NCBI RefSeq assembly: GCF_038025025.1
Contig: NW_027117343.1
Coordinates: 1,488,001 to 1,552,000, forward strand
Direction of reading: 5' to 3'
From: Phyllosticta citribraziliensis
Lineage: Eukaryota
DNA: 64,000 nucleotides
Part shown: in pieces, positions 18,307 through 51,857 of the stretch
How positions within the stretch are numbered: position 1 is the first letter of the stretch
How the letters are laid out: every line of letters starts with the position of its first letter
Notes under the pieces: model-generated
Databases searched by the model: none
Told to the model about the DNA's origin: nothing
What the model saw: only the letters and a program-made list of their open reading frames with translations
Program-made: the position numbers and the translations under genes

Positions 18307-21300
18307 GGTGGAAGGGCGAGAGAAGAGTACAACACGAGAACGACTGGAGGGTACTTTATGAAGCGTTGGGAAGGATGAGGACCATTCGATTGACGTGCCT
18401 CGAGTGGTGTTGAAGAGGAATGGCGAGCTTTTGAGCACCGGTCACGATTTTGGCTGTCGAGTGTAAGTAGAAGAGAAGGCACGTCCCAAAGCGGCAACTA
18501 CGTCCAACATCGAACGTCTGGAAAGACTTCACCTTCGATCGACTCAACGCAGCGGAAAAAAATTCGTCAAAATCGAACGCGCGGAAAGAGCAATGAATTT
18601 CACGAGACAGGTCTCTTCGCACCGAATGGGAAAACGCTTCAACAGGGCGTCCAGATGAATTCCTCCCTAACTTATTCTATCTTTATCTTTACACCCGATT
18701 TTAGAACTAACAAGCTCCCAATGCGAGAGTTGCATCCATCTTCTCTCACTGTAAAGGTATCTGCCTCCAACAACTTGGTAATCCATGGAGATCTCTCCGC
18801 CCTTGAGCAATCGAAAGTCCGACTCCTGCCCAAGCTCCTCCGTCGCACCGCAACCCCACACACGGCCATGTGCAGGCTCTTTGTCGCTTGGCACCTGGGG
18901 AGGCGCAGAGAGAGCCGGCGGAACAGGGGCTCTGCTGTGTCAATAGCCGGGTGATGACCAATGGACGGCGTCGGTCGCGGGGGACCCAGACTGTGCCACA
19001 GCCACACATGTGCAGTGAATATATACGAAGAAAATAATCAAGATCGCAGTCTGGAGCAAGCAGTGCAAGTGAAGGGCTCCAGCTCGGTTGTCGCGGTCTG
19101 CTTCAGATTCCTGAATTTGGTCGAGGGTATTCGGTAGCCTCAAGCTCGCCGCAGTGGCCTCGTCGAAAAAAGCCTGCCACAGAGACTTTGCTCTTGGCTT
19201 GGACTCGGATTCGAGAGGCGGTGCGAGTGATCCGGGCAATTTCCCGCAGTCCAAACCACAATGAGTCGCTTTCTCCGGCACTGGCGAGTGGAAGAACGTG
19301 GATTGGGCTCAAGACGTGGAGCGGAGACTCCAAAGTCGTTGACAATGTCTGCGGCTCGCCCTCTGGACGCCGACCCTGTCTTGACGTATACCCCTGGCCG
19401 GTCCATCTTCCCATTCGGGTACGCTGTTGGTCTTCAGGAACTGAGTGGCGATCTCTACATGCTCCGGTCGCCGCTAACAGACGGAAATAGGCTGTTCGTC
19501 CACATCTTCCAGGTAGCGCCCAAGACTTGGGAGTGCTCACTCATCTGCCGCAACACATGGAGCGTTCAAGAGCTGTTACGGGAACCAAGGCGTTGGGAAG
19601 TGAGTGTCGTAGAGAGCCGGCCCACCGACCCAATCAAGGCCTGCGGGAACGCTTTGGATATCTGCACGGTGGATGCGATTGGGTGGAGTCAACCCGTCAA
19701 CCAGAGCGTCATTGTCCCACTCGTCGCGGGAATTTTCCTGGTCCCCGAAGCATCTTTGGCTGGATGGACATGAGAAAGCAATGGCAGCGGACGGATGCAG
19801 TCGGAGGAAGGGTGGATATACATGTCGATATACGAGTTAATCGGTAAAGAAGAAAGTGTACTGCGGAATTTGCCGGTAGTCTGCGGGAAAAGTAAGGACA
19901 CTTGAGTCGTTCCACTGTGTGTCTCCAGGTAGACTGAGAAGCGGACTCGGACTCGGAGAAATCCCCATCGCCAGTGCGGAGCTTGATGCACGGCCGGCTC
20001 CTGGTGCATTTTGTCCGAGTCGACAAAGGCTTAGTGGAAGCGGGAGGGCTTTTTGTAGTTGCCGACAAAGCTGGGAGCTCTCGGGCTGCGCAGCGCTTTG
20101 TACAAGGAGTGCATTGGCGGAATTGGTCGACGACGGCTTCAGTGCAATCATCTTTCAAGCACCCTCGTCCCAAGCCCTACGGGGGTTCGCTGGAGACCTC
20201 GATTCGATTTCCAGATTTCAAGCTGGTCCGACTTTTGATGGCGTTTTGACCAACCCAGTGAATTGGGAGAAACGCTTGATCGTCGACCTCTCCTTGAAGT
20301 GGTCCGCCTGGAATGCCTTTCTCTCCGCACGGAAAGCTTTAATCGGCCGTTGTATCTGAGCGTCATTAGCACTATTCAAAGGTGACAAGGTCAGAAATTC
20401 GGTTGAAAGCTTACATATAAGGACAAGATATACGGACAGAACAAATCCGATGAGTCGATTTTGAGCGCTCCTTTGATCGTCAGCCCTCGCTTCAATGGAA
20501 ACGCTCTGCTCCGAGCTGGACTTCGACGAGTCGGGATTCTCCACCTTCAATGACGCGCTTGGGGGGCATCTTAGTGGTGGTAGCAGATGCGAGCGATGTA
20601 ATTGAAGGTTGCAGATTGCAAGTCTATGCAATTTTGCACGCTCCCGCAGCCAAGGTCTACCGACTTGCTGTTGGCGGAGAGGGCGCGGACGATTGGATTG
20701 GTTATGCGGAACCAATCCAGATCCTTTTATGCCGAAGAAAACAGCCAAGGGAACAGCGCGGCCTCTCGAACGGGAACTGGGACCAATAGTGTAGTTGCGC
20801 AGTGAAGTTTCCTCAGTATCGACGCGTGTACGAATGGAGCCAGAAACGAGATATATACTAAAGGCGCACAATTCGGTCAGTCCTGAGTCTGCAAGACAGG
20901 GAGCTGTAGACACGTACCTGAGGACGGGTCGAAAAATCACAAGTTCTGCGTCACAATCCTGAGGTTTTCACAAGAGGTCCACTCTCCCGCAGAGCGACTA
21001 CACACAAATCAGTCATTATCCCATTAGGGAGCCGACGGGAAACACAGACACAGTGATGGACTGAGATCTGGAACAGAAAGGAATGTTCAGGTCGGACTTG
21101 CAATCCACGCAGAGGGCATCTTTCGGTGTCCTCTTCTGCAGAATTGCGGAAGGCTGGTCGTTTGTCCTTCCATGATCGCTATAGTGCAGCCTCTGACAGA
21201 ATCCGCCTCAGAGAGATAATGCTCGGGGTCGTATCTCGGGCTTTCGATCAATGAATCTGATGAACAAACAACCAAATCAGCAACGTGTGGCGAGGGGGTC

Positions 21301-24300
21301 GTACGGAGGGCCCTGCATTGTTTAAGGGGGAAGGTGAGCAAGAGGAGCGTTCGGGGCGCTGTGAAAACTTACCAGCATGGGTCCGAAATCAGGAAAAATG
21401 TCCATATGCAGGATATACAACAAGACCCGTTGGCCAATGCAGTTGTCGAAAGTGAGAGACGTCTCTAATCTGGACCAGTGGACGAAACTCTCCACAAGCA
21501 TGTGCCAGGAAGCCTTCCCCGCAACACACTCGACGTTGCATTCCTCTTCCAACAAAAGAGGCTACGTCAGCCACAAAAACCACACGAATGACCACACCTG
21601 CGACCGTCGGCCACTTTTCTGCACGTGTGGAGTTCTGGATACGTACGGTGCCCTCAAGATGAAATCATTTGTTTGTGGACGTTGGGAGTCTGCCCAGGTC
21701 GACCCGTCGTTCCTCGTGTTGAAATCCTGGGCGGCAAGAGTGGCCCACTCGCTGTCGATGGAGAGTTGATCGGTGATTAGCTTTGCCTGACGGTACCAGT
21801 CTTCCCACTCATGAATGGTCATCACGTGGACCTCGTCATCCATGGAATGGTCCTTTGACGAGTCGCGGGCCGCAGGTCATGTGTAAGACCAGAGGAGAGG
21901 GATTGGTACGAAGCACCTTTTTTCCGGCCCGTGCTGCGTGTCTAGCTACACCGAATCCGTTTCGTTCCTCAGGAGCGCGCCGGCGCGGTTGAGCGACTCG
22001 AAGCTGACCTTCGACGAAGACGTTGACGGCGTTGGGGGCCAAGGCGTGGAAGCTGGGAGTAGGTGGCAGCATCTTACTCGTACAACTGGCATTTGATAGG
22101 GTGTTCATACTGCGTGTGCGAAGTGCACGTGAGCCGGTGACAACGCCGACTGTTGCTGCAATGAGCAACCCCCAAGACTATTCTCACCCTGGCGGTTAAG
22201 AGAACAGCCCTTGAGCCGGTTTCCTGTTGTTGGTGCAGCCAAATTCGGAGAATAGTTGTCGCTGTCTTTCAGTTCCAGGCTTTTGGGCGCAGATGGCTTG
22301 TTTGATGCCAGATTGGACACGCGACCGATGCGCCGTTCGGAGCCAACAGGGCAAGAGACCAAGCTGGGGGAAGGAATCAACAAGACCTGTGAAATTGTAG
22401 ACATCTGACACTATACAAAGGCCACTCGAAGCTGCCGAAAGGATGTCATGCCCTGGGCAATGTGCGCTCCGAATGTGGGCACAAGCTCCCGGGGTCTTGA
22501 CTTGACCAACCGTGCCGGTTGCAATATACAAAAACAAAAATGGTAGGGTTGTAAAAGACATGAGGTCGACGCGGAGTCGCTCGCCGCATTTCGTGGGGAA
22601 TGGCTCGCCGAACGGGACGGGCGGCGGTGGTGACGGGGGGCTGCGCGTGTGCATGAACGCTCCCGGGTCTCTCCAGATCAAGTGTTCCATCCACTTCTTA
22701 GAAGCCAGGACTCCTCATCGTGTTGAGAGCACTTGGATTTTGCTGACCCTTGGTTTCCTGACAGCGCCCGCCAAAGAATGAGGACCAAGATGAGTGCGTC
22801 CCAGCCCAGATGGAGCACATGCCTATTGTTGTTGGTATAGGGCTTTAGGGGAGCAGCAGGAACCGGCATTGGGGGAGGCGTGCCGTGGCGGGCCTGGTAG
22901 CGTTCCACCGAGTCCTTGTGTTCGTTAGGGGTCGCCGCGACGGCGGATATACGCCGGGGCAAGACGCACACACATACGCCGGTGCGGAGTTCTCTGTAGC
23001 CGGTGTTGTGTTGGCGTCCCGGCCACAGGCAAATGACGTTGCGGCACTGACGCAGGTGACTGGATGTCTTAAGTGCCCGGGCCCTTTCGCGCAAGACGCG
23101 CAGAACAACATGACGTATCGGGATTGGAAGTAGAGGAAGGCGTATATACGGTGGATTGTATAAAAGAGTGAGAGGAAAAGTAAGCGGGAGAACCGATTCC
23201 CAAGCGGGAGCAAATCAGTGGTATTTCTTCTGGAAAGGAGCGCTCCCCACAGATTCTGGGCACTGATTTGGTCGACATGCGATATCTCAGCGTCTTGTGC
23301 GCTTGACGGACTCGTGGGACTCGGTCTTCTTTGCCGGTGTTCAGGCAGATAGCCCGGACAGTCGCGCTGCGACCAGGGGAGCAGGGAAAACCAGGCTGGA
23401 AAGTCGTAAAGTTCCTGGAGTTCGCACGTCATCGCGTCTTCGACAGGCCTGAAGACATACGGCCGCCTGCTGTGAGCTGCTCCCTCTCGCTCGGAGTATC
23501 CCTGAAGCCTCCGCGGCCGGTGGTGGCAGGCATACAAAGAACGGAGGCCGACTGACGCCGAAAAGGTGAGCTTCGGCAACAGCCTGGAATAGGATGTGTC
23601 CGAGAAGGGTGACCGAGGTCTTCTTTGGGGGCCTTTGCCGAGAGAAGAAGGAGGAATGTTGTCTCGCTGACCATTCGCAGAGAGGAAGAGGTATATACGG
23701 CCATGCCTATGGATTCTTCCATCAGTCATGTCCTCGAGGGCCACGCGTCGCGCCGTGAAGAAGTACACGATGGCGTGCTTCTCGCTGTCAGCTGGCTTGA
23801 TCCTCGCTGCAGTGACGAGTGACAGCGCGTGGATTGCTGGGAAAATTTGTCGATGACGCAGCAACTCTCGGCCGGTTTGAAGTTGTGCGCTTCCGAAAGT
23901 TGAGAATTTTGATGTTTTTGATCGCGGCCCTCGTCTTCCACTTCTGTGGGAGTTTGAAAGCTAAGCCGGATTCGACAGCAGAAGAAGTGCCTTTGGGGTT
24001 TGAGTGTTCATTACGCTCCTCTTCAGGACCCGTTGACATTGCGCGCCGAGGAAGACGCAAAAGACTTTTATGGGCAACCTCCACCGGCCTGGATTTTGGG
24101 GTTGCTGACAAGCCCCGAATCCTGGTCAAGCAGGCTCTCCAAACAGATCTGGCTCGCGTCCAACCAATTAGCATCAATTACCCGGAAACATTGCAAACCA
24201 GATGACGCACCTGTTCAGACAAAGATCTTACCTTTCGCCAGTGACATCCAGCCCACAGAGACCCATCCCATCTTGCGCATTCCGCTTCGACCGTCCGCCA

Positions 24301-26244
24301 CAGAGACAGCAAGATAGCTCCACCGGGAGGGCTTAACCCAAAGCCCACCACTGCGGCATGTCCCTTGAATGAAACGGTCTTTGACTCCTCGGTGATGAAA
24401 GGCTGGGCGTCGGGACCTTTGGGAGCATGCTCTCGGAGCCGCTTGTTGCTTGTCGCCGCCTGCTCTTCCGCGTCGCGCTTTCGGACTGGGCGAGGTCAGG
24501 CTTGCAATTGTGGGCCTCGAAACTACAACTTACCTTTGGTTCCTGATCCGCGGGGCTAAGATGGTGGAGGAAGTGCGCTGCGGGAGCGTCAGCGACTCAT
24601 CGACAACGTCTTTCCATGCAAAGTGATGAAGACTCGGCAACAGAGTCCCAGACATCGAGAGGCGTGGAGATGGTTATATAGGACGAACATAAAACAAGCA
24701 GGCCCCGATCTCATGCGCGTTAGCATCATTATTTCCACCAAAGATACCAAAAGGCTCACCTATACATTCAAGCCGTCCCCCAGACCGCAGGCCCATGGCG
24801 AGGGGTTGTGCTTTCACCCATGGTAGCGTGAGGTGCGACCGCGCCTGGGCGAGAGATCCAGGCCGTGGGGCGGACAAAGGTCTAGATGGCATGGGTTGTT
24901 GCCGATTCGGTCGTCGCATCAATTGGCCCGCGAGGACGCACGCCAGCGGACTTGAGCATTGGCTTGAGCCTTGGCTTTGCGAGAAGAGAGACGTTTCGCC
25001 GCCAGGTAGTTCTTGAATCACGGCCAGGATCCGTCTCCGGGTTGCGTAGAGCTGTGGGAGCCGTTGCATCTCCGGGCTGAACGTCCACAGTGGCTGGTCA
25101 CCTTTGCCGACGGCGTCACCTCAGTGTGCAGTGTGGAAGCAGGTGATTGTCTTTGGAGCAGAAGAAGCAAGGAAAGGTCGTGATGGACGCCAGGCACGGT
25201 GGCGAGTCTGCAGGAGCGAAACCAGTTGCATTGAGTTATAGGAGGACGCGCGCGCGGTGATGGAGTCGTTGTCAAGACGCGCAACGCGCACGCAGGCGAA
25301 GGAAACAAAGAAGCCGGATCCACAGTACGTTGTCTGGGCCGTGAGACGAGCACCGAAGCCGTGGTCTGCGCAAAAGCTGCAGCTCCACAAAATTGGCCGT
25401 CAGCCCTTTCGGCAGCGGTCAAGTAGTAGCCGCCTGGTGGGGTGCCAGCGCGGCCAGACCTGAGGCAGCGTCTGGCTATACTTCTCCTCGTCTCCCCACA
25501 ACGCTATTGCGCGGATCCTGCTACCTGGACAACGAGCAAAGGAAGAGTTGTCCATTCTTTCACGTCTACCGCCGCCGGCGCACACCAAAAGTGGATGTGA
25601 GCGGCTGTTGCTGGAAGAGCTCATCGATGGCGCTCAACGCGTGGCGAAAAAGTCGACTGGTGGACTGGCAAGCCGCGCAAAAAGCCGTCGTACAATCTCC
25701 AATGTCTCCATGTCGTCAACATCCGGCGTTCTTTCGCCGCTGGCTTCATCCATGCAGGTAGAGCACGATTCTTCCGCCGGAACAGAGCCGCATAAGCGGA
25801 GCGGGTGAGGCCGATTGGGAAAGTTCTTGGGCATAGTCAACTTTGCTGAGGCAAATACGCTGTTTGCCTTTCTTGAACTTGGACCGAATCGTTGTACTTG
25901 GGGTTCCGCGTTGCATGCTGATCTTCCTCTTCGTCACCTGCTCGACGAAGCGACTAGCTCTCCGGGAGGCGGAGACAGTTTGAGCCGGTCATTCCTCAGC
26001 TTGGAATCAGGCAGGAAGGGTATATACATCGATTGAAGTGGGTATACAAACGGAAAGCGGCGATGACGTGATGGAGAAAAGCGGTAGAGGAGGGAAGAAG
26101 AGCGATTAGGAGACTGCACGTTCGCTGGGCGCAGATCGCCGCTGTGTGGACCGGGAAAGCTTCCTTGTGTGGATGGTTGATGACTCTTCCTCTCTCCTGA
26201 GCTCCTCGTCGACGTCGATGGAAAGAAATCGGGAACAAATGAGA

Positions 26245-26390: not shown

Positions 26391-29203
26391 CCATATTGCC
26401 TGGAGGTCTGATTTCTTTCGACACCCATTGTGGCGTCTCGGAGGTCTCGAAAGGGGTTTAACCTTGACAGGGATCCCAAGTCCGCGCCCTCGTCATGATC
26501 GCGTCCTCCTTTTCGAAAGGTGTTGCCAAAACCAACTGCGTTTCCCAGGGCAAGAATGGAGAGGCTCCAAGAACGCCAGCAGTAAGCCAGCTCGCCCTGC
26601 GGCCTCCAGGGCAAGAATTCGGCGTCGAGTAGGGCTTCAATTTTCAGTTGGACAAATCCACCCCTTGAGGATGAGATCGTCGAGCGGGGCTATATACGGC
26701 GGGGAGTGATGATGGAGGTATATAAAAGAACCGGGTCAATAAATGGGAGGAGGAAAAATAGAAGTAAAGGAGATGGAAGTCTTTCCACAGGACGACAAAT
26801 GGGGCTCTGCACGGATGTTGAGAGTGCGGAGCAACGTAGGCAGCCACGTCGTTCGGCCGTTTGCTTCGGGTCCTGAAGAAGCTTGTCAGTTCTACCGGAT
26901 CCTTCCTCAACAGGTTTGGTACTCACAACATTCTCTTCATCTGCTGCTTGCCGCGCCCGCAAGCTGGTCATCGCGGCGGCTTCGCTTTGAAGTCTCACTG
27001 GTGATGCGTTGGAAGGCTCCAGCCCGCTGCACATGACCTTACTGGAATCGATCTTTACGTTCGTAGGGTCGATCCATATCGCTGTGGCGTAGGACGCGCC
27101 CAAGACTGAGATGGAGTGCGTCCACTGTCGCTGCTTCGACTTCAAGGTTTGCCGGCGCAGAGGTTGTATACGCCAGTCCACGCATGTCCAGCTCTCCGGC
27201 CCAGCTTGTGTAGTCGGACGTAAATTGTTCCAGACAAGAAGGGATATGGATGGCTTTGGATGGATCCACGTTCCAAAAGCGTGAGGAGCGTCGTGGAAAG
27301 TGTACGAGGAGCTGTATATATACAGGAACAGGGTTGGTGAAAATAGCGGTATACAGCCCCGGGACAGAAGAAAATCTGGGCCCACAGATTGAGGAAGAGA
27401 AAGACCTGTGCAGGATAAAAGCAACCGTCCTCTGGGGCTGGACTGTGATCCGGCAGAGACGACATCTCGGCCTTGTTCTCTTGGAGCTTTCTCTAGCCCT
27501 GAGTGAACATGTCAGCCTCTCTCAAAACGATTCCAAATTTGATGGATCTGGAAACTCACTCTCAAAAGACGCCCAAACCCAATACAGTTAATACGAATGG
27601 GTCGGCTGCGTGCGAGTGGATGGCGAACATGGCTTTCGAGCTGCCAATATACACGAGAGGGAGTTCGGGCTGCTTGAGAACTTGTGCAAGGCGTGACATC
27701 AGTGTTAGCCATCCAAGCCATGGTGATGAGGGGACAGCTGTTGGGCAGGGAGGTGTCATTCCGGCTGCCATCGGACATCCAGAACTTTGGATTGAAGCTC
27801 TTTGTAACGGTGGCATCTTCATGAGTACGCCTTGGGAAGTAGAACCGACAGGAGGGTTGAACGTCGGCGCGAGCACTCTTTTCTTAACGCCGGCAATAGT
27901 CGTTGCAGCGGTGCCGTTGTGCAAATGAATTTCTTGATCACGGGCTCGTTCCTCGGAAGAGACAAGAAGGCGGAGGTGGAGGTATATACCACAGGGACGA
28001 CATGCCAACAAGCAGAGGCGAGCGGAGACGGAAACCGGTGAGGGGGCTCTGGAGCGAGTCGCGCTGCTTGGGAACTGGAAGACGGGAGGAAATACTGCGG
28101 CATCATGGACGTCGCCTCCAGTTCTTCTCTTGGTCGGCGCGGGTCTGCTGTCCTTGGGGGAGGATTTCTCGGGTGACCCCGCTTTGAAGGGAACAAGGTG
28201 ACCGAGTCGGCGACAGCCGCCTGGCTCAGAAGGGCGGCGACGACATCTCCCGAGAAGTGGTGAATATATACGCGGGGAAGGCAAAGTCGAAAATGTGTAG
28301 GAAACGACTGAAGTGTCGAGTGACCAAGCCAGATCGAAGAATGGGGTACCTTGCTTGAGTTCCCCGATTGCGTGGTCCTCCGGGGCGCGGCCTCCAATAA
28401 CTTTCCGCTTCGACTTCCTCGATCGTGCCTTGGGTGGTCTCGGCGTCTCCGGTCGGAAGCTCGACCTGGCCCACGTGGTGCTGCTTCGGGAGCTGCCAGG
28501 GCTGTGTCTCCGAGCAAGAATGCTGCATCCAAGAGGCTGGCGACTTTCCATCGACGCGAGGCGGACACCACGCGGCCATTGATTGCTGGATGATGCTCGA
28601 GGGCCCTCAGACGGGCACATGGTGCGGTCTATGACGTCCACGTCGCGGCTCGGGACCGCAGCCCTATAAATTGTGGATTTTGCTGGTGGTCCACGGCAAA
28701 AGGTAGGCGTAGATGAGTGTATATATGGTAATGTTGAAGAGGAAGCAGAGGAATAGAAATATACCAGGTGCGGTACTTCTCCTTTACCCCGACGTGAAGG
28801 ACGAGGGATTCGCCAGTGATGTCGACTCCGAGTGCCCAGCCCTGCAGACAGTTTTCAGAAAATATTCTCCATCACAACAATTTATCAATGCGGCACTTAC
28901 AACAATAGCCTGGTCGTGTTGCTGCTGATCTGGGGGAGCATCCGTCTCTGCACGCATCCCGTCCTTGCGCTCTTTCTGCTGGACCTCCGTGGCAGGTGCT
29001 CGAGCTTCATCAGAAGCCACGTCGTGGCAGCACAAGTTTTGGAATTCCGGGTCCAGCCAGCGGTACATTCGGCGAGTTGCTGCACGCAGAGGGCATCGTA
29101 TTGGCGTGCAGTGTGACGGGCAAGCTCGCAATAAACCAGCAGGGGTTGGTCTCCGAACGGTCCAGAGAGTCAATTTATACGGGAGGAAAGTAGGAGATGA
29201 TGG

Positions 29204-29769
29204 AGGTGTATACGAAAGGCAGAATGGTAGGGAGAGAGGAGGCCGAGCGCCAGGTGTGGGGGGTGAGTCAGGACCTCCTGGCTTCACACCATTTGCTTGT
29301 CTCGGGCAGCATCGTCCTTGATGAACGCTTCCCGACCCGCTTGATAGTCTGGCGACGCGCATGCTGGGCGCAGTAATTGGTGTCTTCCATGAGGCCAACC
29401 ATGTATGCCTCGGCCGCCTCTTGAGGCGCCTCCAGCGCCTTGCTCTGCCACGGCGTAATCTGGCTCAGTGCCGGTGCTGTCACGTTAGAGCTGACTTCGT
29501 GGACCTGTATACACACACGTGTCAGCCAAAATTTCAGCTAACTGTATGTATGGATGTACTGACCAGGCACACAAATGGCACTTTTGTCAGGAGCAGGTCG
29601 GCCGAGTTGACGAAACACCAATTGAAAGGCAGTGCGATCTTCCTTGCGATCACGACGAAGGTGTATACGAAAGGTAGAATGGTAGGGAGAGAGAGTTCCA
29701 CACCAGTTTGCCGGGGTTCTTGCTTCACACCATTTGCATGTCTCGGGCAGCACCACCTTTGATGAACGC
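29204..29769. repeat. Pair of 110-125 bp direct repeats (29204-29328 and 29659-29769) flanking the H3-like core
   Basis: Both copies share AGGTGTATACGAAAGGYAGAATGGTAGGGAGAGAG and GCTTCACACCATTTGCWTGTCTCGGGCAGCA..TTGATGAACGC. Confidence 0.9.
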
Positions 29770-41759: not shown

Positions 41760-41829
41760 TTTCCACCTCTTACTGCCTTCGCTTCACACACCTTTCCTTT
41801 TGCGTTTGCTATTTAAGGCGTACGGGTGC

Positions 41830-43100
41830 TGGATTTTGAGCGAGCCGAGCCGAGCGGTGCTGCCGCCGCTGTCGGCCTACATATACACCTTCTCCTTTTT
41901 CTCTTTCTCTTTGACTGCTACAGCTACGGTTCGGCATTGTTGTCTCTATCATCGTCATCAGGTCATCACATCACATCATCAGGTCATCATCTTTTGCCTT
42001 TCTTTTGTTTGCTAGCGTGAGCGTCTTTGCCGTGGAAGCGTTTTCTCTCTTCTCTTTTCTTGCTTTCTTTGAGTTGTGGTAGAGTTGGCTATGGCGAGGA
42101 ATATTCTTGGCACATGTATCTCCTTTGATTGCTATCCCTGAGATATCTAGGTAAGTGGTGGTGGTGGTGGTTGATGCGGGGAGAGCAGACGAGCAGACAG
42201 ACACATGAGAATCTAAAGATGTCATCCGTTGCAACAAACAAGACCCTACTTTCTCTGCCGCGTCGATGCGCTCCAAGCTCTCGTACTAGCCTTCCTGGCC
42301 GCTTCATTTCGTCTTTCGCCTGCACATGCAGTATGGCTCTCTCTCTCTTGGCGCCGCCGCACGCAAACTTCCTCCATCCAGGCAGGCCCCCGCGCGTGCT
42401 TGCTGTTTCCCAGTTTCCCAGCTGTGCGAGCGTGCGTGCATGCATGCATGCATGCAGATCGGGTGGTCGTCAAGCTGCATGTGCGTATGCGGAGGGAGGG
42501 CGTTGTTTGCTTTGCTGTTTTGTTCTGCTGCGCTACTGGTTTGCTGCTTTGTTCTGCCAGCTCAGTTTTTTGACATGCAGTGGTTTGGTTGTGGGCCTTG
42601 CGGCAAGCAGCAATCAACATGCAGCCGTGATGGAAGAAAGAACGCGAAAGCGCGCGCCGAGCGAGAGCAAGAGGAATAGGAAGAGAGCGAAAAAGACGTA
42701 TATACACCTGTCTGTCTGTCTGTCTGTCTGTATATCTATCTATCGGTCTTCCAGCAGCGCTGCTCTGCTGCGGCGCGTGGTTGTCTTTCTCTCTTGCGTA
42801 TATTTCTCACCTGCCTCTTTCTCCTGCTCCTCATCCTCGACGTTTTTAGTATTGGTGTATATACCTACCTACCTCTATCCCCTCCCTACGCCGCCCGCAG
42901 TCTCATGCGCCCTGCCCTGGCTTCGTCGTCTCGTCCTCCCAGCCTACGCCGCGCCTCCTACTCGTTCTACCCGGAGACGGATGCACCGGCGTGCCACAAC
43001 GACACCCTGGCACTGCCGTGCGGTGCGGGTGCTTGGGCTCGGACAGAGCAGCTTCGTGCTCGATGAGGACACGCAGACCGACGGACGGACAGGTATACAA
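41830..43100. repeat. Microsatellite-rich tract downstream of MED12
   Basis: Short runs of (GAGCC)n, (TGCA)n, (TGTC)n, (GTG)n and (ACGG)n. Confidence 0.7.
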
Positions 43101-43309: not shown

Positions 43310-45965
43310 GTACCGCATGATCCCGGCTATCACGTCCGGATGGATGAAGAGGTTGGGCTGGCTGGTGGTATACGTGAGTACGCTCGCGATTTTTGACGAA
43401 AGTATGATGCTGACGGGCTGTCCAGATTTCTTCGCGCACTTCGCCTCGAGGTCTGCGATGTTGTCTGCCGCTTTTTGTATGCTTCCTCGACCACGCCGCG
43501 ATGGCTGCGCGCGGCTACGCTGTCCTACCTTTGGACACAAGCGGGGGCTGGTCGGAGACGTCTGCGCGGACCGTCAGAGGCAGCGAAAGCCATGAGGAAA
43601 GTCGATCCCGGTACCGCAGCTGGATGGAGGAGCCTCATGGCAGGGTATGGCACGGCGTTGTGCTGGTGGTATATGTGAGTACGCTCGCGACTTTTGACGA
43701 AAGAATGATGCTGATGATGTTGATGGTGCTGCGAAGATTTTAAAGCGCGCCGGCTCTTTGCACACTTCGCCTTGAAGTCTGTGACTTTTTTGCGGCTTTT
43801 TGGTTGCCTCCTAGACCACGGCGCCATTACACTTTCCGTCCTCCTGTCCAATTGCGACTCGAGCTCAAGGGCGCGTCGTTTTCCCAAGGCACGAGGAGAG
43901 TCGATCCCGGTACCACAGCTGGATGGAGGAGTCTCATGGCAGGGCATAGCATGGTGTCGTGCTGGTGGTATATGTGAGTACGCTCGCGATTTTTGACGAA
44001 AGAATGATGCTGATGATGTTGATGGTGCTGCGAAGATCTCAAAGCGCGCTGGCATTGCGCTCAGTGTTCTCGGATGTAGTTTGCAGCTTTCTGTTGGCCG
44101 CCCCTCCTCTTCTGCGTCGCAAACCCAAGCGACTGGAGTTCGAAAGCTGGAGGGCGACAATACGCGCCCTCGCCTGCATCGTCATCAAAGACTACGCCCG
44201 TGTGTGGTGGCTTCGCGGCTGTATATGTTCGTTCATCTCCTACAGTGTTGGTCGAGAGACATTGCTGATTTGAGCGAGCAGGTTCCAAAGGTCAATCACA
44301 ATCTCGAATGTGGCAATTCGTTATTCGCCGTCAACAAGAGCTGTATTGCCTCCCTCCTTCAGGAACGACAACAACAGGATGGTGCTTCGCCCTTGCGCAG
44401 ACATATCGCAGTTTTTCGTCTGCCTGCTGAATGATATGCCTCCTTTTGGCAAGGCGACGACACGTTGAGAGCAAAAGCAAAAGCGTCGACAAGCCAGAAC
44501 CTCAAACTGGACAAGGCGTCGTCTATGCTTGAAGGAGCATTCGGCCGCAGGGCTGGCATGCCGGAGCGCTGGGCTTGTTTCACACGAATCGGTAGGTTGT
44601 GGCTGTGGTATATGTGAGTAGAATCTTGATTTTGCTCAAGAGACATTGCTGATTTGACCGGGTAGATTGGCCGATCAAACCCGAAGCCTATTGTGATAGT
44701 TCGACTTTGCCCGCCGCCCAGAGCTTTCATGAATTACAACAACAGAATGGCTCCTCGCCCTTGCGCAAGCATGCCGCAGCTGTTCATTTGCCCCCTGAGC
44801 TCTCCCCTTTTTGCGATGAGAGCAGACAGAGAGTACTTCCTTGACCCTTTGGCGTGGGTCGGTGGAGTGGCAAAAGATAGTAGCTGGATTCTGCTTGTGG
44901 TACATGTAAGTCTACTGGCAGTCTTTCTAGAACGAATGCTGATTCAACTAAGTAGATTCATCCACAATGGCAAGGCTCCAAAGCCGTATGTTCTCTATGG
45001 GCCTTCCACCCTGCAACCTCTGTCGTTGCCGCCCACATGGCTATTCAAGCACATCACAATGGCGCATTGGCTTCTCTTCGTTGCCATCGCGATCGCGGTA
45101 TATGTGAGTGGGTTCGCAGTCTTGCTCCAAAGACAGCGCTGATTTGAACGAGTAGATTCGTTCAAAACAACCTGACTCCTGACCGTTTACGGTCCAAGAA
45201 CCTTCCGGTCCGGCATCTCCGGCCAGCAACGATTACAGAATATTTATTCTGGTCGTCTCTGTGGCTCTGAGACTTTCAGTCAGCGTCCTTGGGGCTGCTA
45301 TGAGGAAGAGACGCAAGACGGTGCTGAGCAGCATGCCAGCCCAAAGCGCGGCTCTTGGCTCTGCTTCGGCATGAGATTTCAGCCGTCATTTTCGGTCTTG
45401 GGCGTACCTTTTTGTTGCTCACGTATACGTACGTTTCTTGACCTTGTTGCTTGAGAAACAACGCTAACACGCAGAAAGACCAGACGGCATCGCGGACACA
45501 TCCATGACCGCGTCTACTCGTCGATGGTAAGCCTCAATCGATCGTTCTGAGAGAATGAAACCTTGGGACTTCGGCGCTCGGCGTCGTTCGGCTGTCTCTC
45601 GTTTTGTCACTGAGATCTCTCCCAGTTCCCATGCATTTGTGGCGCTGTTCCCTTCTTGGACATCCACGTTCTGGTCAATCGGGCATACGACGAGGAAAAA
45701 AATCAGCATTGGTGGAGGGGACCAACGCCACCAAGTTGCTGAGGACAACGTCGACATTCTCCTGGTCTCGGAGGATGAAAGTTATACCACCATCATTCGC
45801 GGGAATTTTGACAACCATCTGGAGGACCTGACGCCTTGCGATGAGCCATTTGAGTCTGCGAACACTGGTCTAGTCGTGTGGCTTGCCGGTATATTTGAAG
45901 TATATGTACGTTCTATTGGCGGCATTTTGCTTGGAAAAATGGTGCTAAATTGTCCGCACAGATTG
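43310..45965 (+). repeat. Array of nine GTATAY|intron units; the first three are recent 300-bp tandem duplicates
   Basis: Introns 43374-43425, 43675-43736, 43974-44035, 44227-44281, 44614-44665, 44906-44955, 45104-45155, 45429-45474 and 45906-45961. Each has a GTnnGT donor (GTGAGT, GTAAGT, GTACGT or GTTCGT), a GCTRA branch site and an AG acceptor. Confidence 0.82.
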
Positions 45966-48900
45966 CTCTGCCCTGGCCTGTCATGAAAACACTTGACAGC
46001 CAGCCTCTGTCGATCCTGCCACACCATTCTTCGCCTGTAGCCTGCCGTCCGCTCTACGTCGCAATTCGGCCTCCTTCCTCGTCGATTCCCTTTTTGACAA
46101 CAGCAGAAGGACCCTCTCACTGTCCATGCGGGCTCGTAATGTGCGTACGACACATGGTATGGACACCCGTGATTTCTGTTTGTGATGGGAGCGGATGCAG
46201 CACTTGCCAACCGGTTCTTGACATCCTTCATGGCTTGGACTGGGGCAATGCTCGGGCAGTAATCGTGAGCGCTTTGGACGGCACGTGGTGTAGACCGGCA
46301 ATTTGGCAGATGCAGACAGTCGAAGACCTTGGTGGTGAGGACCTTTACGTGGCAAATCTCGATCATGCCAGACGCAGTGAACAGGGATCTTCACTGGACG
46401 CTTTGAAGGATCGCCAACTGCCCCAGGGACACATGAGAGGAGCACCGAATCCACGTACAACACCATGATGCACAGGCTGAAAGAGATGGCCGTCAAGGAC
46501 AACCGCGAATTGACAAACCTCGGGCTCTGTTTTGTTCTGGATCTGTCCCCGCTTTCCCCAACAAAGCTGGTTGATTTTTGACGCGCAAAGCATTGGCCAC
46601 ACGACTAGTGGCGGTACCACAGCCAAAGACATTTCTTTCCTTGGTGTCTTTGGAGCTCAAGAAGCAAAAGCTCGACAAACTGGTCGACCAACTGGTCCTT
46701 CTATGGTTCCGATACGCGCTATTCCTGCGCCTCCGTCAATGGTAAATACGACGTCTGCTTCTCGCTTGTTTCCGAGACGGACATGGCAGAACACTCGTGC
46801 CCTTGGTTGTCCTGGCTTCTTCGTCACTCTCAGTGCGGCAGACAAGCTTTGGAGTTCTCAACATCCAGAAGCCACCGGCTTCACTGAGTCGGAAAGCGAT
46901 CATTTCGGGACGAGGCAGTGCTTTGGGAGAGATCGCCTCAACGAAAACCCAGGCTGCGATCTCGGCAGTCCTCCAACCCCATTTGCGGCGCTGTTTGCTT
47001 CCATCCGCTTGACGTGAGAATCTGGAATGCCTTTTGCATGGTGGTAAGCTAGCAACCTTTGACGACTTTCGTGAATCTGGCTGATGAGACTGTTGTAGGG
47101 CCTTCGCTTCCTCAGACGACCTTGAATAGTGCCCTAAAGGAGCTGGCTGTCGACTGCTGTCATTTACTGACTTTGGAGCTCGAAGACCAAGAGTGTGGTA
47201 TTTTCTGCTTCTCCGGGAAGCCATTTACCCTTTCACGGCTCTCCCTTCTGGCGATGCACCGCAACAAGATTTTCGCGCCGGCCTTTGTGCTGGTACCTGT
47301 ATATACGACGACCACCCGCCCTGCCATGTCGACGTGACGACCCAGTTCTCCCTGTTTAACGACAGGCCGGACCCGCAAGCAAATGGGTGTGTCGATTGCT
47401 TCCAGTCCTTTCCAAGACGTGCCAAGTGTCCTGATCCGTGCTATCCCGCACGACTGGGTTTTCTGGCTCATCCACAAACTCCAATGGACGCACGGTCGCA
47501 AAAGAAAGAGCCTCTGAAAAAACCTGTCTTGTCGCAAGCAGACTTTCTCTGGACACGGGAGTTTATTGCGACCAGAATGATTGGAGAGTTCACTCTCGCA
47601 TTGCTGTCAACTCACCAAATCAGGGACATGTTCACACTGCCGCCGGATGAGGATGAAGACGAAGATGATGGGGACCCTCGCCTCGAGCACTCGGCGTGGC
47701 TCATGGCAATCTGCGTCAGAACAAAGTCTACGTGCCTGACACAATGCCTCGTTCAACCGTCCGTTCCTTGTCCATCGCCGACGCTCTTGCACCTTCGAAA
47801 CTCGACGCGAAAGAGAAGCCAAAGCGGCAGACGAGACGAAACGTAAGACGAGCATTCAGTGCGTCTTGTGGTCTGCGCAAACGCTTGACTTCCCACTCCT
47901 CCACCACCCACTGCCCTTGTCAGGCAACACTTCCGGATCCGGACTCTTCGCGCCTGTCATTGTGTTGCTGGCGTTATATACGGCTTTCTTTCTTGCTTCA
48001 GCCTCTCCATCTCGCATGCATTTTCTGCAACAGGGCCACGAGATTGAGAACTGTGGAGTCTTTTTTCTTCATCATCCCTGAATGGTGGATGAAACTTGCA
48101 ACGTTGGGGGCCAATGCGGAATGCTCAGCGCAACCAGGTACACTGGGAAGGGTGAGCGGGTCAGGTTCTTTGTGCTTTTTGGCCCTTTGCTGATGAAACG
48201 ATCGTAGTACACTCTCTGCTCTGCCGCCTTGATCAGGTCTCCGACACAACACGGTCGGTTCCAAAACTTACCGACCAATTGCAGGTATCCGTCGGCCGCT
48301 CCTGGCAGCTTCTACGCTTCTTTAACATTCCTCCCAGGAGAGGATGAGTTGAGCAGCAAGAAAAAATGGCCACATCTCTCGCGATTCTTTCCTGGACTCT
48401 GGTTTATATACAAGCCCTCTCGTCTCAAAAGCCTGCTTTGCTTGCATTTCAAGCCATCCAACCGACCGTCCGACGCGAGATCCCAAGCACTAGCAGAAGA
48501 GAAGTGCCCCGAATATGCCGAAAGATTCACCAATTTCGTCCTTGGGTGAGTGCACTGGCATTCCTGCGCCTGGATTTTAGGCATGGACTGACGATGTATA
48601 TTGTAGGGCCTTCGTCGATGTATAGCTTTTCGCCTCACAACAGGACCTATCCACTTGACCATATCTGGTGGTGTCTGTTGCCGTCTCCTTCCTCCGGAAC
48701 CCTTTGGTTTTCTCGCGCCCTGCCATTGGGAGGAGAAGGAAGAATCCTCCACGCTTCCTGATCTCGGTGAACGTCGGGTCCTCTTCGCATCACGTTTGTA
48801 TACAACCGCTACTCAATCTCGTCCGCGGCATTCCAAGTCAATAGATGCTCCCCGAGTAGCTCTGTGCCCTCATCCGCAACGATGATGTGGTTCCAATGCG

Positions 48901-51857
48901 AAGACCTTCAAAGTCTTCCTCGAGAATTGTTTCTTCTCCAAAATCTTCATTGTCTTTCGCCGTTGTGCTTCGTAAATGTAAGTCTTGAAGCCTTGCTCTG
49001 CCCCATTTGCCTCGACAAGGAGTAAAAACGCTGAAAAGTTAACACAGGATTGAACGATGCAATCGCCACTTCCCAAAACCGCTCGGAGACGAGGTCTTGG
49101 TTCAACGAACAATCACTCCTGAGAGGCAAATCATTGAATACTGGCTTGATGAATGGCAACGACCTGCTGCCCTGTTATACCGTGCAAAAATGGTCGAGAA
49201 GCTGTTCGGTGGCGGGGGAAAACCTGCTTGGCCTTGCCGCCAGCATTAGCAACGCCGGCAGCTCTGACGTCGACGAGCATGCTCGATCCGCATGGGTGAA
49301 CGGCAACTTCATTCAGCTCCCGGACATTACCGCAGACGACGTTGTTACAGAGGAGAGCCTCCCAATACGTCTCACAAGATCACCGTGGGATTCCAGCCTT
49401 CCCATGGACTCAGCCTGGTTGTTTTGTATTGGATCTATCCACTCCAAAAGGAAATTGCGCTGTCTTCACTGAAGCCTCCCATCTTCTGCTGCGTATCCCA
49501 TGCACAGCCTTGTTGCCCTTGTATACCCGAAAGACACCGGATAGTATATTGCACGACACGTCTCGCCGCCCAACTCTGGAAGCTCCGCGGAGTCATGGCT
49601 GACAGCATCAATCGTCATTCCAAATACGGCGACGCTCCTGCCTGAAATTTGCGCGCGGTTTCTGATCCTGTGTTTACGAGAGCTTCTCCACCGGCTTCGA
49701 CGACGTCAATCTTTTCTTGTGTGTCTTGCTACTTCTATATGTAAGTGGCACTTCCTCATTGCGAGTTCGTTGAAAGCCTCCTGTCACCCCTGAACCCATT
49801 ACTCTTCCCCTACACACATGCCCAGACTGACAACTTTCGGAATCCTGAATCCTCATGTTGACCACCATTAGATGTCTGGACAAAATAACCAAACCACCCA
49901 AGCCGCCGCCAACAGAGAGGGAGAAACCAGCCATACCCACATGGCTCTCCTCGAGATTGGCTACGATGCCCTCATCAAGTGCATCTGGGAAGACCATGTT
50001 CACGACCGCCGCAATGCAGGACCCTATGCCTGGAGTGGCTCGACCTGCCGTCTTTTGAGCTTATAATGACTTCCTGACGCAGTGCTGTGCATGGTCGGGC
50101 AATTTTCATGTGGGATGTCACCGCCCTTCGTGCACGCGTTTCCAGTCAGCGGTCTGCGGTATGTCAGGATGCTCCCCGTCGGTGGTACGATCAACCATTT
50201 TCCGAGCGCTGTCAATCGTCTTCTCTAGCGAAGAATACCTGTTGAGGCGCCACCGCGTGTTCCGCTTTCCATGCTCTTGCCTTGGTCCTGGGGAGTTCCA
50301 AAGACACGACCGTTGACGCCGCACGACCGCCTGCTTAAGCTATACGACCGCTTCAAGACGTTGTCACCCGAGACTGACCACGACGAATCAGTCGCGGCCA
50401 GAGAAGTCCAACATGAGGCTCAGGCGGCAGACTATCCTCGTCGGCCCAGGCCCACTTCGAACCGTGCAATACCCTGTTGAAGAAGTATAAGTGAGAAAAC
50501 CGATCCTTTGCATTTCACCCCCTGTTTGGCTGCTTCCCTTGACTTTGCATACACCATTCCGTGAACGTAGGACTGATGAATTCTTTCAGGTACAGCCTAT
50601 ACATCTTTGATCTGGTCCGTGGCTATAGTGGCGCGCGTTCACCATCGCTCTCTGACTGGGAAGACCTGTGCGGAACAATCAGTCCCAAGCCTGCAGACGA
50701 GACGCACCAGGCAACGAATACAGCTGGACCCACGGAGTTGTCGCCTGCGATAAAGACCTCGTCCGTGACCGACTTTCTTTGTTGACAGAAGCTGCCAATC
50801 GTGCCCTCCAGACCATGCGGTCGTCTCGCTTGTCGCAAAAGGGAGCCATCAGAACTTCCATTATATTCTCTCACAGTGCGTGGGAATCTGCAATGCTTTT
50901 GCCACGACCAAATCGCATCGCCCTGGGAGTCACCATTCTCGAATTTCCATCGCAAGTCCAGCTGTCCACGCTGAGGCTCCTCTGCTCATAGCCCGCGTCG
51001 CGATCCATCACGCAGCAGACGAGGTCACGGCCTGGGGCTGTTGCTATAGTCTGTGGCGTCTTCGTGGGAGCATCCGCATCTTGTTCAGTCCCTCGTTATC
51101 GCGGAGTCAATTCAACGTCGATGACTTTTTGACATCATCGCCGTCTCGAGAAAGCCGCATACCTGGCTCTTCCTTCGCCAGTGCCTCCCACTATTCTCTG
51201 CTGCTTCCAACGAAATCGGCTGCTCCCAATACCAAGGAATTCTCAGCCTCTCCAATTACAGCCGAACGCCGCGAGATGCATGGAGCCGTATATATCCCAC
51301 CACCACTGCCTGGGTCGATACGCACCGTCGAACTTCGCCAAGTCCAGCCTCGTCGACGAGAAGACTTCTGCGCTTTTGCTTCGGGAGACTGGACTCGGGT
51401 CTGAGCACTGATTGCAGCAGTATTACGGACGATCCTTTCTGCGCACAGGTTCCGCTCTTTCGAAACGCCTGAGTGGAAGGGCAAACAGCCAGTCGTCGCC
51501 CAGCCATTGATTGTCACTCCAAGGCGCGTATATATGATGATAGACCACACGCGTGGGCTTTGCTCCTCGCCAGAGCCGCTTGAAGCTCCCCACCGTCACT
51601 CTGTATGGGCAAGCGTCTCCCAGCAAGTCATCTCCACACCCAAGGATTGGGATGCAGATGAAGCTTTTCGACTGCCGTTGGACGTTTTCGGAGACGGCAA
51701 CTGACTTTGCAGACAAAGACATCGCCGACAATCTCTCGGGAAAGTTGGACGAGCAACTGCAGCATCTCCCGTTTGAGTTTTCTGAGAGGATGGGAAACAG
51801 CGTCCTAGGGGAAGCTAGACGGCACTGTGTCCTTGGGCCGCCTTTCGGTCAACTGTA

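What the first reader, a model, noticed from the sequence alone, without database searches (positions are those of the whole stretch)
19015..51535. Two mirror-image, strand-polarised GTATAY/intron arrays pointing out of a SUI1-Asterix-MED12 island
Seen: left of the island, GTATAT occurs on the minus strand at 24 positions in 19.0-32.3 kb (ATATAC at 19021, 19816, 19828, 20428, 20853, 21413, 22524, 22947, 23144, 23693, 26022, 26692, 27318, 27647, 27984, 28266, 28759, 29944, 30312, 30773, 31390, 32097, 32105, 32302). Right of it, GTATAT occurs on the plus strand at 16 positions in 42.7-51.5 kb. My rough independent-base estimate is about 2 per tract. In both tracts the introns I found lie on the motif strand, intact conserved ORFs are absent, and each tract begins with a microsatellite-rich leader just past the 3' end of a same-strand housekeeping gene (SUI1, MED12). 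Inference: these may be long spliced, possibly read-through or stage-specific transcription units processed at a repeated signal, such as a small-RNA precursor cluster, an RNA-binding-protein scaffold or an array of mini-genes. I know of no described fungal system with this architecture.
Basis: partly seen in the sequence, partly recalled or inferred. Interest (0 to 1): 0.82.

Follow-up and report, generated by a model that had tools for sequence, protein, structure and literature searches.

The report
Spliced noncoding RNAs carrying GTATAT repeats
Two gene-poor stretches flanking three housekeeping genes in a Phyllosticta fungus are long, intron-rich and probably non-coding transcription units, partly built by local tandem duplication, that carry a real but unexplained excess of the word GTATAT on the transcribed strand.

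Summary
All 24 minus-strand and 16 plus-strand GTATAT positions are exact. GTATAT is the most over-represented hexamer in both tracts (24 vs 2.4 and 16 vs 2.1 expected). A 10-kb non-coding control holds 3 copies on both strands. Polarity is real: 30 sense-only vs 5 antisense-only copies (p = 2e-5).

The window matches Phyllosticta citribraziliensis at 100%. A spliced 7,921-nt RNA contig with no mismatches covers 27.0-33.75 kb on the minus strand and runs through 12 motif copies, all exonic.

I found no coding signature: no codon periodicity, flat codon-position composition, and differences from a relative spread 8/7/10 over codon positions. The one exception is a decayed CenH3-type histone-fold relic.

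Parts of both tracts grew by tandem duplication of exon-intron units. On the right, nine consecutive predicted introns each follow an exon ending in GTAYAY, and four of those six bases are as invariant as the splice signals.

I found no small-RNA family, no RNA structure signal and no evidence of processing at the motif. My best reading is lineage-specific spliced lncRNA-like units carrying a unit-borne, sense-strand RNA element. Its function is inferred, not shown.

The parts
27001..33752 (-). T1: the RNA-supported part of the long spliced left-hand transcript. The contig runs on for about 1.7 kb of RNA to the left, to roughly 25.2 kb (inferred).
   Evidence: X2 record 1 is 7,921 nt with 0 mismatches and all joints CT..AC; removing 9 introns gives 6,214 nt, which equals the record coordinate at window 27001. 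The first intron is also seen in run X6.
27498..33520 (-). Nine T1 introns, boundaries within 1-3 nt: 33466-33520, 31830-31893, 31235-31289, 30431-30483, 30141-30206, 29870-29935, 29502-29560, 28841-28899, 27498-27558.
   Evidence: Four appear as listed joints. Five follow from the arithmetic of the contig pieces together with predicted GT..AG introns.
19000..25200 (-). T2: the distal left tract, holding 10 sense GTATAT copies and predicted minus-strand introns. The public hypothetical-protein model maps to 21280-24280.
   Evidence: No RNA was laid on this part.
29343..29513 (-). CenH3/H3-type histone-fold relic (alpha1-alpha2) inside a T1 exon. The piece preceding it lies at about 29564-29650, across intron 29502-29560. 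The C-terminal piece is in another frame, at 29278-29335. A second C-terminal fragment lies at 29719-29776.
   Evidence: Pfam Histone, E = 3.4e-10, 40.7 bits against a cut-off of 26.4. tblastn gives 61% identity to P0020, E = 2e-17. 452 of 455 phmmer hits to the public model fall on this stretch only. The second C-terminal fragment belongs to repeat family D7. The upstream piece and the frameshift are my reading of the sequence.
29123..30391 (-). Locally duplicated block holding three full copies of a bipartite module: GTATAC, then about 25-30 nt rich in C and T, then GTATAT/GTATAA. Copies at 29123-29254, 29892-30013 and 30262-30391. Weaker copies lie between 26672 and 30633.
   Evidence: The profile converges on 10 members, all on the minus strand. 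E-values after iteration are circular, because the hits are in the model.
32605..33598 (-). Left leader rich in tetranucleotide microsatellites, just downstream of the SUI1 3' end.
   Evidence: Loose ends at 32702, 32720 and 32893 show that these repeats also occur at other loci.
33780..34866 (-). Spliced RNA contigs cover it, with an end at about 33780.
   Evidence: joints skip 34256-34306, 34538-34626 and 34702-34865.
36707..42227 (+). MED12/SRB8 gene. Its RNA contig ends at 42227.
   Evidence: Pfam Med12 and ARM_SRB8. GT..AG joints.
41841..42857 (+). Right leader with (ATC)n, (GTG)n, (TGCA)6 and (CTGT)10, plus 4 GTATAT copies.
43334..45969 (+). R1: diverged tandem array of nine exon-intron units. 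Predicted introns start at 43374, 43675, 43974, 44227, 44614, 44906, 45104, 45429 and 45906. Each is 46-62 nt long and follows an exon ending in GTAYAY.
   Evidence: Alignment A1. Splicing here is predicted only.
46300..51600 (+). R2: the distal right tract, with 5 sense GTATAT copies and predicted plus-strand introns at 47044, 48152 and 48546.
   Evidence: Contigs of the RNA run cover 46344-47000.

Best explanation
The two tracts are four lineage-specific, multi-intron Pol II transcription units, two on each side. They run outward from the SUI1-Asterix-MED12 island and behave as long non-coding RNAs. The public annotation of Phyllosticta citribraziliensis calls the left pair hypothetical proteins.

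They grew at least partly by local tandem duplication of short exon-intron units. One left-hand unit family descends from a CenH3-type histone gene that has since decayed.

GTATAY is a unit-borne element of the transcribed strand. On the right it forms the last six exon bases before nine consecutive predicted donors. On the left it sits in a bipartite module rich in C and T.

I take the motif to be kept by selection as an RNA-level signal. The most likely form is a binding site for a reader of UGUA/UAUAUA-type words, such as the fungal Hrp1 or CFIm25 orthologues, which would give the transcripts many sites for one protein. At the right-hand exon ends it may act as a splicing aid.

Shown: the enrichment, the polarity, the splicing of T1, the lack of coding signature and the duplications. 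Inferred: selection on the motif, its RNA-level role, and the reader protein.
For: Enrichment and polarity:
- The motif is the top hexamer in both tracts. It is absent from non-coding controls. Polarity is 30 vs 5, p = 2e-5.
- The two arrays share no detectable DNA similarity (z between -1.65 and 1.30). The same word therefore arose or was kept in two unrelated unit families.

Transcription:
- A spliced 7,921-nt RNA contig is co-linear with T1, and 12 of 12 motif copies in that part are exonic.

No coding signature:
- The spread of GC content over the three codon positions is at most 0.21 in the tracts, against 0.2-0.43 in real genes.
- Codon-position base composition is flat.
- 25 differences from organism B fall 8/7/10 over codon positions.
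- 1 of 206 sense ORFs of at least 45 aa reaches a Pfam cut-off.
- The three ORFs searched have no relatives beyond this species' own models. An exhaustive search with the public T1 model finds only histone H3-family proteins outside this locus.
- The public model skips 30676-31291, which the RNA contig keeps as exon.

Constraint on the motif:
- In alignment A1 of nine units, four of the six exon-end bases (G, T, A, A of GTAYAY) are invariant, like GT..GT, the branch site and AG. Mean column identity is 56%.
- At 27647-27652 organism B differs at two bases, yet GTATAT re-forms 2 nt upstream (my reading).
- Flanks of motif sites resemble each other slightly more than flanks of random sites: 26.4 vs 25.2 +/- 0.2 on the left, 27.3 vs 25.5 +/- 0.4 on the right.

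Literature:
- UGUAUAU is among the five commonest heptamers upstream of Aspergillus oryzae poly(A) sites, and an Hrp1 homologue exists there (PMC3111234, passages).
Against: - No protein binding, RNA end or phenotype has been seen.
- The base before GTATAT is U in only 7 of 24 left-hand and 5 of 16 right-hand copies. A strict UGUA reader therefore fits poorly.
- The PUF word TGTA[ACT]ATA is not polar: 3 vs 3 and 2 vs 2.
- No sense-strand GTATAT lies in the 3' ends of SUI1 or MED12, so it does not look like this fungus's general 3'-end signal. That rests on two genes only.
- T1's inferred 3' end, near 25.2 kb, lies about 800 nt from the nearest copy.
- Many copies are inherited through duplication, so the independent count is well below 40.
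- Flank similarity may reflect shared C/T-rich composition rather than descent.
- Splicing of the nine right-hand introns is predicted only.
- A 654-codon ORF in spliced T1 is longer than in 297 of 300 composition-matched simulations, which leaves some room for translation.
Confidence: 0.5

Rival explanations
1. The motif has no function. It is a by-product of how these tracts grew. TA-containing seeds next to tetranucleotide microsatellites were carried along and multiplied by tandem duplication of units and small slippage events. The polarity only reflects the single orientation of the units.
For: - Six right-hand copies are homologous exon ends.
- 29944 and 30312 lie in duplicated modules. 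32097 and 32105 are an 8-bp duplication.
- The leader copies abut (CTGT)n, (CTAT)n and (TACC)n.
- GTATAC and GTACAT variants occur at homologous places.
- No function has been shown.
Against: - The same word is top-ranked in four sub-tracts and in two unit families without detectable similarity.
- In the right array four of its six bases are invariant while neighbouring columns on both sides have drifted.
- Other non-coding DNA of the window, including a region with its own repeats and introns (4.7-14.7 kb), lacks it.
- Isolated TA density is the same inside and outside the tracts, so there is no general TA-generating bias (my arithmetic).
Confidence: 0.22
2. The motif works on DNA as a TATA-type core promoter. 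The tracts would then be arrays of decayed mini-genes, each unit with its own TATA box and C/T-rich initiator region. The long RNA contig would be overlapping or read-through unit transcripts.
For: - The left-hand module (TATA-like word, a C/T-rich stretch, then a TATA-like word; one copy reads GTATAAAT) looks like a fungal core promoter. This resemblance is from my own knowledge.
- The module lies between the stop of the histone relic and the next unit.
- Several modules are followed within 10-80 nt by an ATG that the public or own gene models use as a start: 32031 and 31378.
- TA-runs are otherwise rare in this TA-poor DNA.
Against: - On the right the motif is the last six bases of an exon, directly before a predicted donor. 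That is no place for a promoter of that unit.
- TATA boxes need no 5' G and are only weakly directional, yet 59 of 81 TA-runs carry a 5' G on the sense strand and polarity is 30 vs 5.
- One RNA contig runs through 12 copies and is spliced across units.
- Only one unit has a recognisable gene relic.
Confidence: 0.13
3. The tracts are fast-evolving orphan protein-coding genes, as the public annotation has them, and GTATAY is incidental.
For: - Public models BC567DRAFT_209225 (714 aa) and BC567DRAFT_209226 (559 aa), and the assembly's own models, lie here.
- The transcripts are spliced.
- A 654-codon ORF spans five junctions; only 3 of 300 simulations reach that length.
- Sense-strand stop triplets are rarer than antisense ones.
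Against: - No codon periodicity and flat codon-position composition.
- Substitutions fall 8/7/10 over codon positions.
- All three sense frames are stop-poor, which points to composition rather than one reading frame.
- The only relatives found beyond these models are histone H3-family proteins matching the histone stretch.
- The 714-aa model needs an intron that the RNA contig does not use.
Confidence: 0.1
4. The tracts are precursors of clustered small RNAs (snoRNA host genes, miRNA-like or siRNA clusters) cut at the repeated signal.
For: Many short introns and a non-coding host resemble snoRNA host genes. Nothing else supports it.
Against: - Rfam found no family at gathering or at E up to 10 in 18.5-52.5 kb, apart from two weak chance-level rows in the island.
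- The introns are 46-66 nt, too short for a snoRNA.
- No structure signal: 0 of 144 windows with z below -3.
Confidence: 0.03

Closest known systems
NORAD-type lncRNA (human; repeated units each carrying PUMILIO elements). Recalled from my own knowledge, not from a call.
   Same: A long non-coding Pol II transcript made of diverged repeat units. Each unit carries one or two copies of one short sense-strand word.
   Different: - The word here is not the PUF element: TGTA[ACT]ATA is 3 vs 3 and 2 vs 2 between strands.
- No binding protein is known.
- The transcripts are heavily spliced.
- The units are only partly recognisable.
Fission-yeast meiRNA with its clustered Mmi1-binding hexamers. Recalled from my own knowledge.
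   Same: A fungal lncRNA whose activity rests on many copies of a hexamer that binds one protein. This is a model for how such a tract could work.
   Different: Different word, different fungal class, no meiotic link shown, and no locus homology tested.
Fungal 3'-end upstream elements: UAUAUA efficiency element of yeast; UGUAU and UGUAUAU frequent upstream of A. oryzae poly(A) sites (PMC3111234, passages read).
   Same: The same kind of word on the sense strand of RNA. Hrp1 and CFIm25 homologues exist in filamentous fungi.
   Different: - Here the word is spread over kilobases of exons, not placed 30-150 nt before a cleavage site.
- The RNA contig reads through 12 copies.
- The 3' ends of SUI1 and MED12 lack it.
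Non-coding snoRNA host genes
   Same: A multi-intron transcript without a conserved ORF.
   Different: No snoRNA was found. The introns are too short to hold one.
Histone H3 / CenH3 family (for the relic only)
   Same: The Pfam Histone domain scores above its cut-off. The tryptophan in '...TPWQS...' matches the CenH3-like hits P0020 and P0021, where H3-like hits have phenylalanine. The intron sits at the same place as the read-through stretch in P0020 (my reading).
   Different: The C-terminal helix is out of frame, several conserved residues are replaced, and it is embedded in a longer non-coding transcript. It is a pseudogene, not a working histone gene.

Membership tests
Protein-coding gene | One continuous ORF in the mature RNA, with codon periodicity | tested here: not met
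   Spliced T1 (6,214 nt) has 22-32 stops in each frame and a longest ORF of 654 codons. There is no GC periodicity and codon-position composition is flat.
Protein-coding gene | Purifying selection at the codon level, or relatives in other species | tested here: not met
   25 differences from organism B fall 8/7/10 over codon positions; this covers one exon only. No relatives beyond the species' own models, apart from histone-family proteins matching the histone relic.
lncRNA acting as a multi-site protein scaffold (NORAD / meiRNA type) | A long, stable, non-coding Pol II transcript | tested here: met
   A spliced 7,921-nt contig in X2; its first intron also appears in X6. Stability and localisation were not tested.
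lncRNA acting as a multi-site protein scaffold (NORAD / meiRNA type) | Many copies of a word known to bind one protein | tested here: inconclusive
   40 sense copies of GTATAT. The word fits no tested reader exactly, and the PUF word is not enriched or polar.
lncRNA acting as a multi-site protein scaffold (NORAD / meiRNA type) | Demonstrated binding and titration of the protein | not testable with these tools
   Needs CLIP or pull-down experiments.
snoRNA host gene / small-RNA cluster | Small-RNA genes in the introns or exons | tested here: not met
   Rfam at gathering and at E up to 10 found none in the tracts. Introns are 46-66 nt. No structure signal.
Poly(A) efficiency-element array / termination zone | The word lies upstream of mapped cleavage sites | not testable with these tools
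   Contigs cannot show RNA ends.
U12-type introns | 5' splice site RTATCCTY | tested here: not met
   5 matches in the window against 3.25 expected; 26 of 100 shuffles reach 5.
Histone H3 / CenH3 (the relic) | Histone-fold domain detectable | tested here: met
   Pfam PF00125, 40.7 bits against a cut-off of 26.4. An own H3 profile scores 81.8 bits.
Histone H3 / CenH3 (the relic) | Complete, in-frame histone fold | tested here: not met
   The match stops at profile position 111 of 122. The C-terminal part reads only in another frame (my reading).
Tandem array of histone-derived units (whole left tract) | Several units recognisable as histone-derived | tested here: not met
   The H3 profile hits 1 of 188 left sense ORFs of at least 20 aa. 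All other hits score 4.2 bits or less, no better than antisense and control ORFs. Unit alignment A2 is unconvincing at 46%.

The most novel reading that the evidence does not exclude
GUAUAY is a dedicated cis-code of a so far undescribed class of fungal long spliced RNAs. A sequence-specific protein would read it on the RNA at 20-40 sites per locus, either to hold the protein (a fungal NORAD-like sponge placed next to highly used housekeeping genes) or, at exon ends directly before GU, to drive splicing of otherwise signal-poor non-coding exons. Its independent appearance in two unrelated unit families would then be convergent.
Probability: 0.12. Interest if true: 0.7.

Novelty: new member of a known kind. 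Interest (0 to 1): 0.36.

Why it matters
If the motif is functional, this locus offers a compact natural test case. It would show how a filamentous fungus marks long non-coding transcripts with a repeated word, and how such RNAs grow by duplicating exon-intron units.

Two practical points follow as it stands. Two annotated 'hypothetical proteins' of Phyllosticta citribraziliensis are probably not proteins. And a CenH3-type histone gene has left a transcribed, spliced pseudogene here. Neither changes a major open question.

Tried and rejected
- Whole genome: none is held, so I could not make genome-wide motif counts.
- Sequencing runs: no RNA holder is listed on record. X2 and X6 were only guessed to be RNA, and laying them showed spliced contigs.
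43.0-46.3 kb had little or no cover in X2, which says nothing either way about the right array. 22 joints and 642 differences were not shown, so motif conservation in organism B could be judged at one site only.
- Metagenome scan with the MED12 exon: no relative found.
- Earlier findings of this scan: nothing.
- Small-RNA families and RNA structure: nothing.
- PUF element and U12 splice site: not enriched.
- Histone origin of all units:
  - By eye I saw possible H3-like residues in other left-hand units and in the right-hand units.
  - The objective tests did not support this: the H3 profile, DNA alignment A2 and the comparison of right-hand units with the relic unit. I dropped the idea, keeping only the one relic and its duplicated C-terminal piece.
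  - A script for a further three-frame comparison with a histone consensus was not run, and I left that step out.
- RIP-like origin: TA observed/expected in the tracts (0.44-0.59) equals the controls (0.46-0.59), so I rejected a general RIP signature.
- Palindrome or DNA-dimer site: after GTATA, C follows in 14 of 54 sense sites. Palindromes are not favoured, so I rejected this.
- Loose ends of contigs have no match elsewhere in the window.
- Literature:
  - 'GUAUAU' is held by 731 papers. I saw only the listing of the top 25, mostly on PUF proteins.
  - Phyllosticta genome papers: listing and passages of PMC9073689. They say nothing on this locus.
  - I did not look at supplements.

Full report
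**Observation.** The listed positions are exact.
- ATATAC occurs 33 times in the window, 24 of them at the listed places in 19021-32302.
- GTATAT on the plus strand occurs 27 times: 16 in 42698-51528, 10 inside the left tract and 1 elsewhere.
- Order-0 to order-2 Markov expectations are 0.4-2.4 (left) and 0.3-2.1 (right), against 24 and 16 observed. GTATAT is the most enriched of all 4096 hexamers in both tracts.
- Split into four sub-tracts, the enrichment holds in each. It is weakest in 46.3-51.6 kb: 5 vs 0.83 expected, with 3 antisense copies.
- Two non-coding controls hold 1+2 copies (4.7-14.7 kb) and none (51.6-54.1 kb).
- The underlying feature is G(TA)2-3Y. TA-runs reach 3.7-4.9 per kb in the tracts and 0-1.6 per kb elsewhere, and 59 of the 81 runs in the tracts have G on their 5' side. 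The window as a whole is poor in TA (observed/expected 0.44-0.59).
- The opposite strand is not empty. After removing the palindrome GTATATAC (7 left, 3 right), sense-only vs antisense-only copies are 30 vs 5 (binomial p = 2.2e-5).

**Organism and annotation.**
- The longest left-hand ORF is 100% identical to part of 'hypothetical protein BC567DRAFT_209225 [Phyllosticta citribraziliensis]' (714 aa) and to a 352-aa model of the window's own assembly.
- A second ORF matches BC567DRAFT_209226.
- The species is a citrus endophyte with a genome of about 29-32 Mb (PMC9073689, passages).
- Flanking genes are ordinary: MED12/SRB8, a metallophosphoesterase, a MYND-finger protein and others.
I saw their spliced contigs but did not test the families.

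**RNA evidence.** I laid four runs on 27001-47000.
- X2 and X6 were only guessed to be RNA, but their contigs skip GT..AG introns in SUI1, Asterix and MED12. They are therefore RNA-derived.
- One X2 contig of 7,921 nt, with no mismatch, lies on the minus strand in pieces 27001-27497, 27559-28840, 28900-29501, 30484-31234 and 31893-33465.
- The listed joints are CT..AC. The gaps between pieces are filled exactly by five introns I had predicted from splice signals. Removing nine introns gives 6,214 nt, the contig's own coordinate at window 27001.
- The first intron is also seen in X6.
- The contig begins near 33752, about 28 nt from where the SUI1 contig ends. It continues about 1.7 kb beyond 27001, to roughly 25.2 kb (inferred).
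- All 12 motif copies in the supported part are exonic.
- The closeness to SUI1 fits read-through, but an own start site there fits equally well.
- Contigs of organism B, 90-95% alike, cover parts of both tracts. Nearly identical low-depth contigs of organism C do too. The tracts are therefore not an assembly artefact.

**Coding or not.**
- The spread of GC content over the three codon positions is at most 0.21 in 18.3-33.9 kb and at most 0.14 in 41.7-54 kb. In the window's real genes it is 0.2-0.43.
- Spliced T1 has 22-32 stops per frame. Its longest ORFs (654 and 461 codons) have flat base composition over codon positions, unlike MED12.
- All three sense frames are stop-poor, at 0.011-0.015 per codon. 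Composition-matched simulations give a median longest ORF of 352 codons, and 3 of 300 reach 654.
- 25 differences from organism B inside the 430-codon ORF fall 8/7/10 over codon positions.
- Of 113 left and 93 right sense ORFs of at least 45 aa, one reaches a Pfam cut-off.
- The exhaustive search with the public 714-aa model gave 455 hits. All but the model itself and two models of this locus align only to residues about 405-480.
- The public model also needs an intron (30676-31291) that the RNA contig keeps as exon.
- I conclude the units are non-coding or at most carry unconserved ORFs.

**The histone relic.**
- Residues 405-480 of the public model are a histone fold. Pfam Histone scores 40.7 bits on 29271-29537.
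- tblastn places a CenH3-like match (61% identity, E = 2e-17) at 29513-29343.
- The exon before it ends in a stretch resembling the helix that precedes the intron in H3 genes. The C-terminal helix is recognisable only in another frame, inside repeat D7, which has a second copy 441 bp upstream.
- This is a decayed, intron-bearing copy of a CenH3-type gene.
- I then suspected that all units are histone-derived. An H3 profile hits only this one ORF; all others score 4.2 bits or less, no better than antisense and control ORFs. DNA alignments of candidate units are unconvincing. The idea stays unproven.

**Unit structure.**
- On the right, diverged tandem units of 240-490 bp give nine consecutive predicted introns of 46-62 nt.
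- The six exon bases before each donor read GTATAC, GTATAT (x4), GTACAT, GTATAT, GTATAC and GTATAT. In the nine-way alignment the G, T, A and A of this word are invariant, like the donor GT..GT, the branch GCT.A and the AG. Mean column identity is 56%.
- On the left, a block at 29.1-30.4 kb is duplicated. It carries a bipartite module: GTATAC, a stretch rich in C and T, then GTATAT. A profile finds about ten minus-strand copies in 26.6-30.6 kb. The later E-values are circular, because the hits are in the model.
- Four of nine T1 donors have a GTATAY 93-111 nt upstream.
- Flanks of motif sites are slightly more alike than flanks of random sites. This may be shared composition.
- The two arrays share no detectable similarity.

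**What it is not.**
- No Rfam family lies in the tracts.
- There is no excess RNA structure.
- The PUF word shows no polarity.
- The U12 splice site is not enriched.
- There is no general RIP signature.

**Interpretation.** The tracts are lineage-specific, multi-intron, lncRNA-like transcription units that run outward from the island and grew partly by duplicating exon-intron units.
- Several features point to a signal read on the RNA rather than on DNA: polarity with transcription, the fixed 5' G, four invariant bases at nine exon ends, re-formation of the word at 27647-27652 in organism B, and presence in two unrelated unit families.
- UGUAUAU-type words are common upstream of poly(A) sites in Aspergillus oryzae, which has an Hrp1 homologue (PMC3111234, passages). 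Such readers are the obvious candidates.
- Against this, only 12 of 40 copies have U before the G, and the 3' ends of SUI1 and MED12 lack the word.
- A neutral origin through duplication and slippage, and a promoter role of the left-hand module, remain serious rivals.
- The function is unproven.

**Verdict.** Processing at the motif and a small-RNA role have no support. Interest is moderate to low.

Noticed in passing
window 29278-29776, minus strand: A transcribed, spliced pseudogene of a CenH3-type histone. The fold is recognisable from the helix before the intron through alpha2. The C-terminal helix is out of frame, and a second C-terminal fragment lies 441 bp upstream.
   Followed up: yes
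window 27941-32031 and 21280-24280: The public hypothetical-protein models BC567DRAFT_209225 and BC567DRAFT_209226 thread through these tracts. The first needs an intron (30676-31291) that the RNA contig keeps as exon, and owes its Pfam histone label to the relic.
   Followed up: partly
window 4700-14700: A third 10-kb stretch without coding periodicity. It has plus-strand branch-site words (GCTGAC 13 vs 5), predicted short plus-strand introns at 11502, 11662, 12103 and 13439, and an 81% repeat (12561-12779 / 13202-13417). It holds almost no GTATAT. It may be another spliced non-coding unit.
   Followed up: partly
whole window: Strong TA depletion everywhere (observed/expected 0.44-0.59; TAA, TAG, TTA and CTA at 0.12-0.75). 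This makes long chance ORFs common in all frames.
   Followed up: partly
window 699-824, plus strand: Rfam calls a tRNA spanning 126 nt, so probably with an intron. ARAGORN did not report it.
   Followed up: no
window 15600-17000: A histidine-phosphatase-like gene with extreme third-position GC (0.88-0.98 in one phase). The adjacent minus-strand ORF 17278-18441 shows clear periodicity but has no Pfam family.
   Followed up: no
window 53484-53601: A 53-bp tandem repeat, 2.2 copies, 83% matches.
   Followed up: no
window 32702-32720 and 32875-32893: Microsatellites (GGCT)n and (AGCA)n where contigs of three runs break into unlike sequence. The same repeats therefore occur at other loci.
   Followed up: partly
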